Origin: Amoeboaphelidium protococcarum X5
Lineage: Eukaryota > Fungi > Aphelidiomycota
Length of the DNA stretch: 28,427 nt
Assembly (NCBI GenBank): GCA_023515725.1
Contig: JALDTO010000218.1
Span: forward strand, 1 to 28,427
Direction: 5' to 3'
The notes beneath the pieces were generated by a model that made no database searches, had not been told where the DNA came from, and saw only the letters and a list, made by a program, of their open reading frames with translations. The position numbers and the translations under genes were made by a program. Numbering within the stretch: the first letter of the stretch is position 1; every line of letters starts with the position of its first letter. Of this stretch, positions 69 through 28,427 are shown piece after piece.

Positions 69-177
69 TAAATTTTTACTGATTTATTACAACTAGTATT
101 TTTAATACTCTCTAATCTAGTATTAAAGTCTTTAGAAGTTTCCAGCATATAGTGAGATTTTAAGAGTCCAAATCTTT
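1..177 (-). mobile_element. 5' part of a group I (IB-like) intron in nad1
   Basis: P1: exon GAGUCU pairs with intron GGACUC, with U.G at the splice site; P element ATATGCTGGAAA (~139-150); Q element AATCAGCAGG (~41-50). Confidence 0.85.
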
Positions 178-762
178 AGACTCAGGTAGATCAAATGGTA
201 CTCTATTAGTTTCAGCTAATATTACTATTAATGTTATTAAATATAAAGGTAAATAAATTAATAAATTATTAATTGGTAAAAGATTAAAATAATAAAATCT
301 AAAAGAACCAATAGAAAGAGCTAATATAAAATAAATCATACCTAATATTAATTCATATGATATTAATTGTGAAGTTGTTCTAATAGCACCTACTAATGTA
401 TATTTATTTTTTGATGCCCATCCACCTAATAAAATACCGTATAATTCTAAACCACCAATAGCTAAAAGAATAAGTATACCAAGATAGGAATCTAAAAGAT
501 AATAAAATAACCATAATGCTAAAGATAATAAAAATGATAATAAAGGTGATAAGGTAAAAATTATTAAATAGGATCTTTGAGGTATTAATATTTCTTTAAA
601 TAATAATTTTAAACCGTCAGTTAATGGTTGTAATATACCATATGGACCTACAATATTAGGTCCTACTCTCATTTGAATACTAGCTTGTACCTTACGTTCA
701 GCTAAGGTATATAACATAATAGATAAAATTAATGGTACAATAATTAATAATAATTTAATCAT
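178..762 (-). CDS. nad1: NADH dehydrogenase subunit 1, exon 1 (195 codons; 3' exon not in window)
   Basis: AERKV..QMRVGPN..GILQPLTDGLKL, ISYE, AETNRVPFDLPE; exon end set by P1 pairing. Confidence 0.95.
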
Positions 763-1221: not shown

Positions 1222-1347
1222 TTAATAAGTATAGATAAGAGAATCAAAAAGATTAATTAATGGTAAAATAATTAAAAAATATGCGAAATAATAAATACTT
1301 GATAAAATTAAAGGAATTATAATTATAATTATTAATAATTTTATCAT
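1222..1347 (-). CDS. 41-aa chimeric micro-ORF: nad1-like start fused to a duplicate cob C-terminus
   Basis: MIKLLIIIIIIPLILSSIYYFAYFLIILPLINLFDSLIYTY*; the last 28 aa match cob ILSSIYYFSYFLIILPLINLLDSLIYTH at 25 positions. Confidence 0.6.
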   Translation of the reverse strand: MIKLLIIIIIIPLILSSIYYFAYFLIILPLINLFDSLIYTY

Positions 1348-1400: not shown

Positions 1401-1874
1401 TTAAGATCTAAAGCATCCGCAAAATAAAGATTTAATAGCTGAAAAAAAAGAACGAGTAGAAACATGAGCAGAAACAGGAGCAGAAACAGGAGCAGAAACA
1501 GGAGCAGAAACAGGAACTTCTTCCGGAACTTGTCGGGCTAATTCAACAGATTGGATTTGAATTCTTCTTAGAAGATTAGGGTCTAAATCAATGCTTTTAA
1601 AGGTTCCCGTGCGGACAGGCTCAAAAAAAGGATCATGATCTAAACAATACATAATAGAAGGATAACATATTTTTATTAAAATAAATAGTGCTATTGTTAA
1701 AACAAAAATCAAAAAAAAAATTTTAGGGTCAGTAAATAGTAATAATGTAGAAAATTTATTTATCATATAGGGTAAAATTTTCATTTGGATTGTTGATGTC
1801 ATCATAGATATATTAATGGTATTTAAGATAGTCGAAATTTTAGAAGGAATTATAATTAATAATGTTTTTATCAT
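1401..1874 (-). CDS. orf157, hypothetical membrane protein with a nad1-derived N-terminus and PVSA repeats
   Basis: open 157-aa ORF; MIK.LLII.P...IQM...P...TD is colinear with nad1 residues 1-49; hydrophobic stretch IFFLIFVLTIALFILIKIC. Confidence 0.6.
   Translation of the reverse strand: MIKTLLIIIPSKISTILNTINISMMTSTIQMKILPYMINKFSTLLLFTDPKIFFLIFVLTIALFILIKICYPSIMYCLDHDPFFEPVRTGTFKSIDLDPNLLRRIQIQSVELARQVPEEVPVSAPVSAPVSAPVSAHVSTRSFFSAIKSLFCGCFRS
1454..1515. repeat. 12-bp tandem repeat GAGCAGAAACAG x4 plus 1 degenerate copy (PVSA repeats of orf157)
   Basis: read directly from sequence. Confidence 0.9.
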
Positions 1875-5641: not shown

Positions 5642-5712
5642 CAAGAGAAAAAGGAATCGAACCTTTATTATCATCTTTGGAAAATGAGGTGTTACCATTA
5701 CACTATTCTCTA
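5642..5712 (-). tRNA. trnW: tRNA-Trp(CCA)
   Basis: cloverleaf; anticodon arm TCATT-TTCCAAA-GATGA; T loop TTCGATT; pair 1:72 is U.U. Confidence 0.9.
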
Positions 5713-5727
5713 ATATTTCCATACGCA

Positions 5728-5839
5728 GAGATCTTGTTCTATAGAACAATAATTATTGTAGAATATCTAAGATATTCAATCCCGATCTTTTAAGATCCTG
5801 CTAATATTTATGACGATAGCCGGAATTCTAGAATTCCGC
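5728..5839. repeat. multi-hairpin dispersed element (family A)
   Basis: TTGTTCTATAGAACAA, GAATATCTAAGATATTC, GATCTTTTAAGATC, CGGAATTCTAGAATTCCG; related copies at ~6017-6057 (inverted), ~11815-11885, ~17196-17282 and ~18950-19115. Confidence 0.8.
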
Positions 5840-5944: not shown

Positions 5945-6015
5945 CTTTCAAGAAAGGACTTGAACCTTTAATTACAGAACCAAAATCTGTTGTGTTACCT
6001 TTACACCACTTGAAA
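5945..6015 (-). tRNA. trnQ: tRNA-Gln(TTG)
   Basis: perfect 7-bp acceptor stem TTTCAAG/CTTGAAA; anticodon arm ACAGA-TTTTGGT-TCTGT. Confidence 0.88.
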
Positions 6016-6072
6016 TTTGGATTGAATATCTTAGATATTCTACAATAATTATTGTTAACAAAAATTTTTATT

Positions 6073-6146
6073 TGATAAAGAAAGGAATTGAACCTTCAAC
6101 CTTCCCGTTAACAGCGGGATGCTCTAACCAATTGAGCTACTTTTTA
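6073..6146 (-). tRNA. trnN: tRNA-Asn(GTT)
   Basis: D arm AGCTCAATTGGTTAGAGC; anticodon arm TCCCG-CTGTTAA-CGGGA; acceptor mismatches at pairs 1 and 3. Confidence 0.88.
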
Positions 6147-6226
6147 TCCAAGGATGGAATCGAACCACCAATGACTATCAGTCGTCCCATTTACAGTGGG
6201 ATGCACTACCACTATGCTACTTGACT
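6145..6226 (-). tRNA. trnY: tRNA-Tyr(GTA), long variable arm
   Basis: anticodon arm TCCCA-CTGTAAA-TGGGA; variable arm GACTGATAGTC; G.A mismatch at pair 2. Confidence 0.9.
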
Positions 6227-6309
6227 TTTTTAAAAAGTTTTTTAATTATATATTATATACTATAAATATATATTAAAAAGATCTAAGAAGATCTCGTATA
6301 ATAATATTT

Positions 6310-7160
6310 AAATTTAAGAACTTAAACTCAGATCAATTTTAATTTTCAACATTCTCAGAATTAAAAGAATAATTTTTTATATTCTTTTTAATCTCTTCTA
6401 TTTGCTGATACGCATTAATTATCAAGATGGCTGCTTCTAAGCCTACTTTTAAATGAAAAAATTCTTTTTTATCTCTAAAATATGATCTTTATTTTAAGTT
6501 AAGGATTCTGATCCTATTGATAGAAGATCTTATCACCTTTCTATCCCTGTATTAAATTATTTTCTATTACTAATTTAATCAACTCCTAAAAGAGATTTTG
6601 TAGAGAACCAGCTATCACTTAATTCGATAGATATTTCACCTCTTACCTATAATCATCCTAGCCCTTTGCAACGGACACAGGTTCGGACTTCTATCCTGTT
6701 AAATTATTTTTAGGTAAGCTCATTAAGTTTCGGGACTTAATCACTTATGACTTCTTAAATATCTTTCTTTTTCCTTTAAGTATTCTGAACTTAATGTTCA
6801 ATTGCCATAAATAATTACTTACTGACCCATGATGCAAAAGGTATAAGGTTTACCCTTTTCTAATTTTAGATTTCATCTTCTAGATTTACATCTTCTATTA
6901 TCTTTCTTATAATAAATTAATTTATTCCTTAATTTTATTTATTACTTTTAGTTACAGGTATTTATTTTATATACCTACCAGTTTAATCTGATATTACTTG
7001 TCAGTAAATATAACTGCTTTAATTACTCAATGGATATTTCCCTCTGAACTTACGTTCAGGGAATTTTTTTTCTTTTGTATACCTCCCTAATGGTACCGGT
7101 AGGTACCATTTTATTTAGATTAGGTTATAATTTTAACTTAAGTCCATTTATCGGCTTGAA
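6310..7160 (-). rRNA. rnl: LSU rRNA 5' half (domains I-II up to the GTPase centre); boundaries approximate
   Basis: TACCTTTTGCATCATGGGTCAG (~E. coli 560-580), GTCCCGAAAC (~670), GATAGCTGGTTCTC (~805), GGCTTAGAAGCAGCCATC (~1060-1080). Confidence 0.85.
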
Positions 7161-7264
7161 AATATTTATATTTTCAGGTTTTTAAGAAAGATAATAATAT
7201 AAGAATCTGTCTAAATCTTAATTTAGATTACTTTTAGAATTAAAATTTAATTCTATAATCTTTA

Positions 7265-8290
7265 ATTTTATCTTTATTATCTATATTTCAATCAATCATG
7301 ATTTTATTATTTTTAAGTTTAGCTTAAGCCATAGACTTATTCATTCTAGTCCTTGCGTACTGGGAATGAGTATAATAAAGATCTATTAATCAGTAGATAG
7401 GAACCGAACTGTATTGCTACGTTCTGAACCCAACTCACGTACCTTTTTAATTGACGAACAGTCAAACCCTTACTAGCTTCTGTACTAGTAGGTGAAGATG
7501 AGTCGACATCGAGGTAGTAATCCCCCAGTTAGATCAAATCTCTAGCCGAGGATTGCTCTGTTATCCCTAGAGTAACTTTTTTCCTTTTTACGGTTTATAA
7601 ACCGGTTCATTAAAACCCCCTCATTTGAAGGCCTGTTTTTTTAGTAAAAATTACAGTCAAAATCAATTATCTTTTCTTATTATGAATTTATTAATTCATC
7701 TTAATATTGATTCTTTTGTTAACCTTTGTTACTTCTTTAAAGGTTACCATCCCAGTTAAAGCTATTTTTAACCTTTAATTATTATTTGCTGGATTAAAAA
7801 TATAACTTAAGCTTCATAGGGTCTTACCTTCTTACTGATTAGTTTAAGTATCTTCACTTAAATTACATTGTCATCAGGTAAAGGATGAAGACAGTTGGGG
7901 AATCGTTTTCTCTTTCATGCAGGACATCAATTATATGTCTAGGGATTATGCTACTTTCAGACCGTTATGGTTACAGCCGGCATTGACTGGAAATCTTCCA
8001 GCATTGGCCAGAGTTCAGAGACTATACTTCTCCCTTTTAGATTCGCAGTCTCATAAGTTTTTGGTTTACAGTCGTCCCCCTTTATTTGCCGAGTTCCTTC
8101 ACCCTTTTTATCCTTTAACCTATTTTTAATTCTCCTGAGTTGGTTATGTACACTTTTTTATGTTTAGACCCACAACGAATTATAGTTATTATTAAATTTG
8201 ATTACACATATCAGCATTCTCTCTTTCTTTTTTTTTCAGATCACTCTTGAATTTTATTTTTTAAGAAATGCTCTACTACCTCTCTCTTAT
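7265..8290 (-). rRNA. rnl: LSU rRNA 3' half (~E. coli 1185 to the 3' end); boundaries approximate
   Basis: GGTAGTAGAGCA, GAATGCTGATATG, GGTGAAGGAACTCGGCAAA, AAGACCCTATGAAGC, GGGATAACAG, GATGTCGACTC, GAGTTGGGTTCAGAAC, sarcin-ricin loop AGTACGCAAGGAC. Confidence 0.9.
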
Positions 8291-17080: not shown

Positions 17081-17415
17081 TATTTTAAATACTATTTTAG
17101 TATTAATTATTTGGCTAGATTTTCTTTTACTTAACTTTGTATATTTTAAAGTTTTTATTATTTATATATATACTAATAATATATTAAAAATTAGAGAGAT
17201 CTTGTTCTAAAGAACAATGATTAAGGTTGAATATCTAAGATATTCAATCCCGATCTTAAAAGATCTCGTCGTCAGAAATATTAGATTTGCCCGTAAATGG
17301 TGTCTACGGTAAATAAAACCATAATAAATAATAAGTAAAGTTAATAATTTAATATAAATATCCATAATATTAAGTATTATAGCAGAATATTAAAAATATT
17401 CTAAAAATAATAAGT

Positions 17416-18702: not shown

Positions 18703-19254
18703 TTAAAATTATACTAAAATTTTTAATCCATAAATATCTACTGTATGTATATGGCTGAGCTGTCCTTATCAGTCCATACCGGTTCTTACCGGTGTTTTCG
18801 GTTGTTTTATATTTTTAATATACCTCGGTTCGGCTGATTTATAAAAATTTATCTATCGGTAGATGTTTTCAACAAAGTTCTCTTTTATTTAACCTTAAGA
18901 TTGGTATATCTAGATAATAAGGATATTTGTCCAATTTATTTTAAACAAATATTCCATATGCAGCCGGAATTCTATAATTCCGCTCTGCTAATATTTATGA
19001 CGATATATATACTCAAAATTTTAAAAGTACTATTTCATACGCCAGATCTTGTTCCAAAGAACAATGATTAAGGTTGAATATCTAAGATATTTAATCCCGA
19101 TCTTTTAAGATCTGACTAATCTTTCAGGTTTTATCTAAAAAATTAGTTACTTTAACCTTAATAATCTAATATAATAGTAAATAAATTATTTACAGTATTA
19201 TGTTCAGTATTAAGAATATTTTTATTTATATATTATAATATTATTTATATATAA

Positions 19255-20948
<1,694 letters not shown>

Positions 20949-25565: not shown

Positions 25566-25591
25566 TTTAAAATCAAAAATATTTATTTACC

Positions 25592-25738
25592 TATCCTATC
25601 ACTATCCGTTTTAGGTATCCTATCACTATCCGTTTTAGGTATCTTATCACTATCCGTTTTAGGTATCCTATCACTATCCGTTTTAGGTATCCTATCACTA
25701 TCCGTTTTAGGTATCCTATCACTATCCGTTTTAGGTAT
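25592..25738. repeat. minisatellite: 6 x 24-bp TATCCTATCACTATCCGTTTTAGG in the atp6 5' region
   Basis: six contiguous units, one with a single substitution; no spacers. Confidence 0.95.
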
Positions 25739-27400: not shown

Positions 27401-28427
27401 CGGATTTAATCTGTTTTCAACTTAGTTTTTAATTAAATTCTTATCTTATTTATGGTATTATATAAGGTAATATTAATAGAATTAAAGTTTTTAAACCTTT
27501 TTCAGGAAATACAATTTGTATTTCAGGTTGATTTCTTTTATCTATATGTAAATTAGATTCAATACCATATTTATATCCAGAGATCTGTTTGGATTACTTC
27601 ATCAATACTAAAACTATTTGTATAAATTGTTAATCCTGAATCTCTATAACTACCATCCTCCAATAAGCTAATACTACTGGATTTAAACTATAATCGAAAA
27701 TTTCAATTGTACCGCGGAGGGAGGTAAAATTTTTATACCATATTTATACCCAATATTATGAAGATCATCAAAAACTTTTAATTGTCTTCCTATCGGTAGT
27801 TATAAAATATACACCTGTTGTTAATGTATTATTTATTTTACCCTGAAAATATAAATATTTTTAAGGAAAACTATTACAAATAAATTTTAATTTTTCAAAA
27901 TAATAAATCAAATAACTTGATTATGATAATGAATCTTTTAATTTTTAATAAACATATCTTATATGTTTTATTAAACAACTGTCACCTAATAAAGTACCAA
28001 AAATTATATTATAGATTTTATAACTTAAGATAAAAGATTATCCCCCCTCCGGTCATATCTTTAGACCATCTTTTATTATATGAAGTTCTCATATATGAAT
28101 AATCATAAGGTACAATAGCATTAGTTTGATTAGGTTTATATGTTAATGATCTATCTATATATAAAATATGCTTAAAATTAGTTCAAATAAAAATAAAATT
28201 ATAAATTAAGTTCAACTATAAGCAATAAACAGATTAATACCAGTACCTTTAGGCACGGATTGGACTATATCTTCCCAAAATATTGTTATAAATAACAATG
28301 ATTATTGCAGTACCAACAGGTATAAAAATCTATTATTTTAGGTTATTCGTGTAGTCTCTGAGGATCCTATTTGCTAGTGATTTATCACTAGTTTGGTTTC
28401 CTGCTGATTATCCATTGTTACATACTT
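27401..28427 (-). mobile_element. 3' part of a group I (IB-like) intron preceding the nad4 exon
   Basis: Q AATCAGCAGG, R TCAGAGACTACA (~28350-28361), S AAGATATAGTCC (~28262-28273). Confidence 0.75.
27435..28150 (-). pseudogene. degenerate LAGLIDADG endonuclease downstream of the intron S element
   Basis: IIFGTLLGDSCL, LNPVVLAYW, DGSYRDSGLTIYTNSF, ILPYIIP, broken by stops, frameshifts and GC-rich inserts. Confidence 0.78.

What the first reader, a model, noticed from the sequence alone, without database searches (positions are those of the whole stretch)
6073..6226. tRNA-Tyr and tRNA-Asn overlap by 2 nt, so tRNA-Asn needs 5' repair
Positions 72-73 of tRNA-Tyr (6146, 6145) are also positions 1-2 of tRNA-Asn. 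The genomic Asn 5' strand TAAAAAG mismatches its 3' strand CTTTATC at pairs 1 and 3. If Tyr is released intact, Asn is left 5'-truncated, and templated 3'-to-5' nucleotide addition would rebuild GAU. This would make 5' editing a necessary step for resolving overlapping genes, the mirror image of 3' repair of overlapping tRNAs in animal mitochondria (inference).
Basis: partly seen in the sequence, partly recalled or inferred. Interest (0 to 1): 0.72.

Follow-up and report, generated by a model that had tools for sequence, protein, structure and literature searches.

The report
Overlapping aphelid tRNAs needing end repair
In the mitochondrial DNA of an algal parasite related to fungi (Amoeboaphelidium), two tRNA genes share two bases and both have mispaired ends, so the cell likely trims and rebuilds their 5' ends after transcription, a repair known from amoebae and chytrid fungi that here would also undo a gene overlap.

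Summary
The overlap is real. The window is a complete circular mitochondrial genome; its cox1 matches the aphelid Amoeboaphelidium protococcarum. tRNA-Tyr (6226-6145) and tRNA-Asn (6146-6073) share 2 nt, and two DNA runs and one RNA contig read the junction identically. Asn has U1xC72 and A3xA70, as stated.

(1) Tyr (G2xA71, U3.G70) and the free-standing Trp (U1xU72) are mismatched too, and a relative with the same four tRNAs unlinked keeps U1xC72 in Asn. So 5' editing looks lineage-wide and is not caused by the overlap. (2) The arrangement has a precedent: the Dictyostelium tRNA-Ile pair shares 1 nt, its downstream partner is 5'-edited, and a 2014 review poses exactly this question. (3) Tyr 70-73 (GAUA) equals the expected Asn 1-4. 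The junction therefore looks like a fusion, and a rival fold (bulged Asn, Tyr repaired at its 3' end) is within 0.7 kcal/mol.

Best reading (0.55): both 5' ends are trimmed and rebuilt, and Tyr keeps its 3' end. Editing, the enzyme and the cleavage order are untested. A new member of a known kind and a good test case.

The parts
6145..6226 (-). tRNA-Tyr(GUA) with long variable arm; acceptor A1-U72, G2xA71, U3.G70, pairs 4-7 Watson-Crick, A73
   Evidence: ARAGORN; Rfam 50.7 bits; pair table
6073..6146 (-). tRNA-Asn(GUU); acceptor U1xC72, A2-U71, A3xA70, pairs 4-7 Watson-Crick, A73
   Evidence: Rfam 61.7 bits, model positions 1-71; pair table
6145..6146 (-). shared bases: Tyr U72, A73 = Asn positions 1, 2
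   Evidence: same sequence in runs X3 and X12 and X14
6145..6148 (-). GATA = Tyr 70-73, also the exact complement of Asn 69-72; likely remnant of Asn's old 5' end (inferred)
   Evidence: the Tyr of L001 is identical for 23 nt up to position 69 and differs from position 70 on; pairing probability 0.94 with Asn 70-72 when the arms are forced
6141..6145 (-). run of five A's; two more than a fully paired Asn stem starting at G6148 would hold
   Evidence: sequence; no insertion or deletion in the covering contigs
5945..6015 (-). tRNA-Gln(UUG), acceptor fully paired, 57 nt downstream of Asn
5642..5712 (-). tRNA-Trp(CCA), free-standing, U1xU72 mismatch
6276..8152 (-). large-subunit rRNA upstream of Tyr on the same strand; both ends approximate
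   Evidence: Rfam 7269-8152; a deep RNA contig stops at 6276, a weak hint only because contigs cannot show ends

Best explanation
Two tRNA genes in this aphelid mitochondrial genome overlap by two bases, and both likely mature by 5' editing: the precursor would be cut inside the top of the Asn acceptor stem, Tyr would keep its encoded 3' end, and a 3'-to-5' polymerase is predicted to rebuild the first one to three bases of each tRNA from its own 3' strand. Shown: the overlap, the mismatches, their confinement to pairs 1-3 in the lineage, and an unprocessed RNA-library contig across Tyr-Asn-Gln. Inferred: one transcript LSU-Tyr-Asn-Gln-Trp; a cut at or just after 6145; mature Asn G1 A2 U3 and mature Tyr A1 U2 (C or U)3; a Thg1-like enzyme. 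Inferred history: a deletion fused Tyr position 69 to the 5' end of Asn, so Tyr borrowed GAUA as its 70-73 (a 4-nt overlap). Two extra A's then moved Asn 4-7 clear of Tyr and left the shared bases inside the 3-nt window that 5' editing rewrites anyway. Editing came first and tolerates the overlap; the overlap did not call it into being.
For: Mismatches by pair in 12 aphelid-like tRNAs: 6, 1, 1, 0, 0, 0, 0; Rfam gives the same register for 12 of 12. Free-standing genes: pair 1 mismatched in 5 of 10, against 21 of 176 in 16 other loci (Fisher p 0.006; related genes are not independent). The 5' side drifts: Gln position 1 is U, G, A, U with A72 in 4 of 4; Trp position 1 is U, A, A, A with U72 in 4 of 4; 3 of the 6 pair-1 mismatches face C72, a 10% base in this genome. 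L001, in a 100/100 cox3 clade with the window, has an unlinked Asn with U1xC72. Known 5' editing covers pairs 1-3 in amoebae and chytrids (PMC4284800 section 2.2.1); the Dictyostelium downstream tRNA-Ile is edited at 1-2; a bacterial TLP adds 1-2 nt to 5'-truncated tRNA-Phe in vitro (PMC3061083 passages). The extra AA makes sense under this route and would be a defect otherwise (inference). A73, the Tyr identity base (PMC9976931 passage), is kept.
Against: No mature tRNA read was available; the one RNA contig is unedited and could be precursor or DNA. No aphelid Thg1-like gene could be looked for. In free-standing aphelid-like genes, pairs 2-3 are Watson-Crick in 20 of 20 and co-vary in Gln, so editing beyond position 1 is not shown for the lineage; the non-Watson-Crick pairs at 2-3 are all at the junction (3 of 4, p 0.002). 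Tyr keeps A1 and G2 like L001 while its 70-72 differ, as if the 5' strand were the template. In the folding model the junction GAU prefers Asn's 3' strand (0.94) to Tyr's 5' strand (0.04). Every studied overlap releases the downstream tRNA whole (PMC4284800). Only one other Tyr and one other Asn were available for comparison.
Confidence: 0.55

Rival explanations
1. Animal-type resolution of a 4-nt overlap: RNase P cuts before G6148, Asn leaves with G1 A2 U3 paired and a 2-nt bulge (kept, or later trimmed and rebuilt), and Tyr is left ending at position 69 and is repaired at its 3' end on its own 5' strand (A70 C71 U72, then A73).
For: GAT exactly complements Asn 70-72; chance is 0.019 at one shift and 0.059 at any of three, and 6 of 176 control tRNAs show it. 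Both-cloverleaf energies: -32.0 (bulged Asn) against -31.3 kcal/mol (Tyr keeps 3:70). Tyr diverges from L001 exactly at position 70 and keeps G2, which would restore L001's G2-C71. It removes all three junction defects without editing at positions 2-3. Releasing the downstream tRNA whole is the known rule (PMC4787750 abstract).
Against: It needs templated 4-nt 3' repair, which the review passages I read report for a centipede, and the same review found no organism with both 5' and 3' editing (section 5.1). It does not explain the extra AA, which puts a bulge in an acceptor stem. Pair-1 drift in Gln and Trp points to the 5' side. The GAT match is equally explained as a historical remnant.
Confidence: 0.2
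2. Either-or processing: 5' editing repairs Asn and Tyr as it would in unlinked genes, but each precursor yields only one tRNA, or RNase P cuts at Asn +1 and Tyr minus two bases is repaired or discarded. The overlap is tolerated, not resolved by 5' repair.
For: Lineage-wide pair-1 mismatches without overlap. The review leaves both cut orders open for Dictyostelium. A poly(A) polymerase repairs human Tyr (abstract).
Against: RNase P relies on an intact acceptor stem (PMC4284800 section 2.2.3 passage), which Asn lacks at pairs 1 and 3. Untemplated A addition would give A72 against A1. Alternative processing was excluded in the animal cases.
Confidence: 0.17
3. No editing: pair-1 mismatches are tolerated, and Tyr or Asn at the damaged junction is a decaying gene replaced by imported cytosolic tRNA.
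For: Only 4 tRNAs are encoded, so import must supply most codons (inference). Pair-1 mismatches occur in 21 of 176 control tRNAs. Asn has A73 (C73 in L001) rather than the bacterial identity base G73.
Against: All arms of both genes are fully paired, and mismatches never reach pairs 4-7. The same four tRNAs persist in L001 at 68% cox3 identity. Anticodon stems differ from L001 on both sides and stay paired.
Confidence: 0.08

Closest known systems
Dictyostelium discoideum mitochondrial tRNA-Ile(GAU)1/tRNA-Ile(GAU)2 overlap (PMC4284800 section 5.2, passages read, citing Abad et al. 2014, which I did not see)
   Same: Same-strand overlap; the downstream tRNA is mismatched at the top of the acceptor stem; the cut order is unknown.
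   Different: There 1 nt (the discriminator only) and editing is shown by sequencing. Here 2 nt including the paired position 72, two different tRNAs, both partners mismatched, an alternative 4-nt register, and no RNA evidence of editing.
Mitochondrial tRNA 5' editing of Acanthamoeba, Physarum, Polysphondylium, Spizellomyces, Harpochytrium and Monoblepharella (PMC4284800 section 2.2.1, read whole); enzyme DdiTLP3 (PMC5041481, passages)
   Same: Mismatches confined to pairs 1-3; reduced tRNA set as in chytrids (PMC7194472 and PMC6131824, passages).
   Different: An aphelid, for which I found no such report. Free-standing mismatches are at pair 1 only. Enzyme not identified.
3' repair of overlapping animal mitochondrial tRNAs, e.g. 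human Tyr/Cys by mtPAP (PMC4787750, abstract and outline; PMC4284800 passages)
   Same: An upstream tRNA-Tyr overlaps its downstream neighbour on one transcript.
   Different: There the downstream tRNA is encoded complete and paired, and only A's are added. Here the downstream gene is itself defective in the standard register.

Membership tests
Mitochondrial tRNA 5' editing (Acanthamoeba/chytrid type) | Encoded mismatches confined to acceptor pairs 1-3 in otherwise intact tRNAs | tested here: met
   8 of 8 mismatches in 12 aphelid-like tRNAs, none in pairs 4-7; registers confirmed by Rfam
Mitochondrial tRNA 5' editing (Acanthamoeba/chytrid type) | The 5' strand drifts and the 3' strand is conserved | tested here: inconclusive
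   Met for Gln and Trp at pair 1 (4 genes each); reversed for Tyr (A1, G2 kept, 70-72 differ); Asn keeps both U1 and C72 in 2 of 2
Mitochondrial tRNA 5' editing (Acanthamoeba/chytrid type) | Mature tRNA 5' bases differ from the gene and restore Watson-Crick pairs | not testable with these tools
   Only assembled contigs were served; the one RNA contig over the junction is unedited
Mitochondrial tRNA 5' editing (Acanthamoeba/chytrid type) | Nuclear Thg1-like 3'-5' polymerase acting in mitochondria | not testable with these tools
   No nuclear genome held
Overlap with a 5'-edited downstream tRNA (Dictyostelium Ile pair) | Same-strand overlap lying within positions 1-3 of a mismatched downstream tRNA | tested here: met
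Overlap resolved by 5' repair (proposed in PMC4284800 section 5.2, not observed) | Upstream tRNA released whole, downstream released 5'-short | not testable with these tools
   Needs intermediates; the folding model does not favour it
Animal-type 3' repair of overlapping tRNAs | Downstream tRNA encoded with a complete paired acceptor stem | tested here: inconclusive
   Not met in the standard register; met only with a 2-nt bulge from G6148

The most novel reading that the evidence does not exclude
A gene fusion in which tRNA-Tyr lost its last four bases and took the first four of tRNA-Asn, made viable because 5' editing rewrites both tRNAs: one cut at the junction would release Tyr whole and Asn 5'-short, the route that a 2014 review calls possible but never observed. 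Less likely but stranger: the same mitochondrion uses 5' editing for pair-1 mismatches and templated 3' repair for Tyr, two systems that the review had not found together in one organism.
Probability: 0.4. Interest if true: 0.62.

Novelty: new member of a known kind. Interest (0 to 1): 0.44.

Why it matters
It would extend predicted mitochondrial 5' tRNA editing to aphelids, the sister group of fungi; I found no such report in the open library. It also gives a sharper test of a stated open question (PMC4284800 sections 5.1 and 5.2): can 5' editing resolve overlapping tRNA genes? In Dictyostelium the shared base is an A that looks the same whether kept or re-added. Here the routes predict different mature Tyr ends (G70 A71 U72 with an edited 5' end; A70 C71 U72 with the encoded 5' end; or A72 from untemplated addition), so one end-sequencing experiment in a cultured organism would separate most of them.

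Tried and rejected
Assembly error in the A run: rejected. ARAGORN's 76-nt Asn fold as drawn: rejected, it needs an A.C pair and a broken T stem; the -18.0 row holds the same A.C pair and was dropped. The unconstrained fold of the precursor does not give cloverleaves, so only constrained energies are used, and 0.7 kcal/mol is within model error. Further tRNAs: none by a relaxed ARAGORN run, Rfam to E 1, or an arm scan. RNase P RNA gene: no Rfam hit; a scan with two recalled motifs gave two hits of one half only, both inside ORFs; this is weak, such genes are hard to detect. More relatives: metagenome scan 52 loci, of which only L001 holds Tyr and Asn among the 11 closest scanned; genome scan 20 loci, none close; viral scans gave nothing aphelid-like; plasmids one short irrelevant hit. 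The unread part of the L005 contig could not be fetched, and cluster names could not be looked up. RNA runs X16 and X18 and DNA runs X6, X11, X8 had no cover at the junction; holes prove nothing. Paramicrosporidium does not fit (23 tRNAs); the sanchytrid passages gave no tRNA list. Laforest et al. 2004 was not held. PMC6471195 held none of my four terms. The search for a printed Dictyostelium overlap study gave 0 papers. In the control table I left out duplicate or overlapping loci (L036, L049, L054, L063) and some loci with a single or doubtful tRNA. L051 is counted as aphelid-like on a 35-residue match at 66% and was not in the tree.

Full report
What the window is. The first 68 bases repeat at the end, so it is a complete circle. 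It carries the usual fungal-type respiratory genes and LAGLIDADG introns, nearly all on the minus strand. In 13 ORFs TGA is unused, all stops are TAA, and Trp is TGG. The last cox1 exon is 100% identical over 220 residues to the UniRef cox1 of Amoeboaphelidium protococcarum, an aphelid, and that protein maps to four exons of the window. Only four tRNA genes exist: Trp(CCA), Gln(UUG), Asn(GUU), Tyr(GUA), clustered between the LSU rRNA and cob.

The observation. Rfam places Tyr at 6226-6145 and Asn at 6146-6073: a 2-nt overlap, with Asn mismatched at pairs 1 and 3. Two of four DNA runs span the junction without a difference (one may be the window's source, the other is from another study). One of three RNA runs has an unedited contig over 5994-6215 at depth 4.3 beside an rRNA contig at 183.6; this fits a precursor but may be DNA, and contigs cannot show mature ends.

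Is there 5' editing? Three of the window's four tRNAs are mismatched: Asn, Tyr (G2xA71, U3.G70) and the free-standing Trp (U1xU72). A cox3 scan gave 52 loci. I scanned the 11 closest with Rfam and found 8 complete tRNAs and 1 partial. L001, L002, L005, L006, L008 and L013 group with the window at 100/100; L051 rests on a short match only. L001 has the same four tRNAs, unlinked, with Gln G1xA72, Tyr A1xC72 and Asn U1xC72. Over 12 tRNAs the mismatches by pair are 6, 1, 1, 0, 0, 0, 0. My script chose registers partly on pairs 4-7, but Rfam gives the same coordinates for 12 of 12. Pair 1 is mismatched in 5 of 10 free-standing genes against 21 of 176 in 16 other loci (p 0.006; not independent, and some control loci may edit too). 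Position 1 varies while 72 is constant in Gln and Trp. Nine tRNAs from chytrid-like loci (labelled so from their CUA anticodon tRNA) show the same pair-1 pattern, 3 of 9. This is the signature described for amoebae and chytrids (PMC4284800 section 2.2.1). I put lineage-wide 5' editing at about 0.8. It is a prediction from DNA.

What is special at the junction. Pairs 2-3 are Watson-Crick in 20 of 20 free-standing positions but not in 3 of 4 junction positions (p 0.002). The window's Tyr matches L001's for 23 consecutive bases up to position 69 and differs from position 70 on, while A1 and G2 are kept. The four bases there, GATA, are what a fully paired Asn would start with; the 3-base match has a chance of 0.02-0.06. 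The simplest history (inferred, one comparator only) is a deletion that fused Tyr 69 to Asn 1, followed by two extra A's. A deletion between two pre-existing GATA copies is also possible, but then Tyr's 5' bases must have drifted twice.

How it is processed. With both cloverleaves forced, the state where Tyr keeps pair 3:70 scores -31.3 and the bulged-Asn state -32.0 kcal/mol; with the junction free, GAU pairs with Asn at 0.94, mostly in a 6-bp helix that gives up G7-C66. So folding does not support 'Tyr intact' and does not exclude it. I favour 5' repair of both tRNAs (0.55) because it needs one known activity working within its known 3-nt range, explains the Trp and L001 mismatches, keeps Tyr A73, and gives the extra AA a reason: it moves Asn 4-7 out of Tyr. 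The 3'-repair rival (0.2) follows the animal rule and explains the kept G2, but needs templated 4-nt repair beside 5' editing and leaves a bulged stem. Either-or processing (0.17) gives the same mature Asn without the overlap being resolved by 5' repair. Decay with import is unlikely (0.08).

What is known. PMC4284800 (sections 2.2.1 and 5.1 read whole; passages of 5.2, 3.1, 3.2 and 2.2.3-2.2.4) already asks whether 5' editing can process overlapping tRNAs, names the Dictyostelium tRNA-Ile pair (1-nt overlap, downstream A1 and A2 edited) as the test case, and says that 5'-truncated release had never been observed. DdiTLP3 is the Dictyostelium editing polymerase (PMC5041481 passages). Similar DNA-only predictions are routine (Acrasis, Naegleria; PMC4202320 passages). 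Nine library searches (listings only unless cited above) showed no paper on aphelid mitochondrial tRNA editing and no later resolution of the overlap question; most subscription papers, including aphelid genome papers and their supplements, are outside the library, so this is not proof of absence. Earlier notes of this scan list many predicted 5'-editing genomes, one with an overlapping pair in a filasterean; I did not check them.

Verdict. Observation confirmed; interpretation partly supported. A new member of a known kind, with a useful twist: the overlap reaches a paired base and both partners are defective, so the mature ends are diagnostic. Interest 0.44.

Noticed in passing
window 1-28427: No tRNA-Met gene in a complete circular mitochondrial genome; only Trp, Gln, Asn, Tyr. 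L001 (17.6 kb, partial) has the same four. The initiator tRNA would have to be imported; chytrids with reduced sets keep Met (for Synchytrium).
   Followed up: partly
window 5745-5782 and 6019-6056: Perfect 38-bp inverted repeat around tRNA-Gln, starting 16 nt after Asn; part of a dispersed repeat with copies near 17195-17265 and 19033-19120. It would form a long stem in the precursor and may mark the rearrangements that built the cluster.
   Followed up: partly
window 1401-1874 (-): 157-aa ORF with no Pfam hit whose start is a decayed copy of the nad1 start (20 of 23 nt; 29% over 91 aligned residues, E 7e-9) and whose end has PVSA repeats.
   Followed up: partly
window 160-762 (-): nad1 ORF covers only positions 1-200 of the 298-position Pfam model; I did not locate the rest among the listed ORFs.
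   Followed up: partly
window 6073; L001 9411, 5140; L008 3801: Unusual discriminators: Asn A73 (window) and C73 (L001) instead of bacterial G73; Gln U73 in the two genes with a pair-1 mismatch and G73 in the two without.
   Followed up: no
window 25586-25738 and 903-992: 24-bp tandem array with an inverted copy elsewhere.
   Followed up: no
window 1222-1324 and 28295-28329: Short stray copies of cob (84% to 2249-2351) and cox1 (97% to 19832-19866) sequence in intergenic DNA.
   Followed up: no
L060 near 5364: tRNA-Gly/tRNA-Val overlap by 1 nt in another mitochondrion-like contig, without mismatches at pairs 1-3.
   Followed up: no
L053-L065: Several prokaryote genome bins hold contigs with cox3 and mitochondrion-like tRNA clusters, likely eukaryote contamination.
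   Followed up: no
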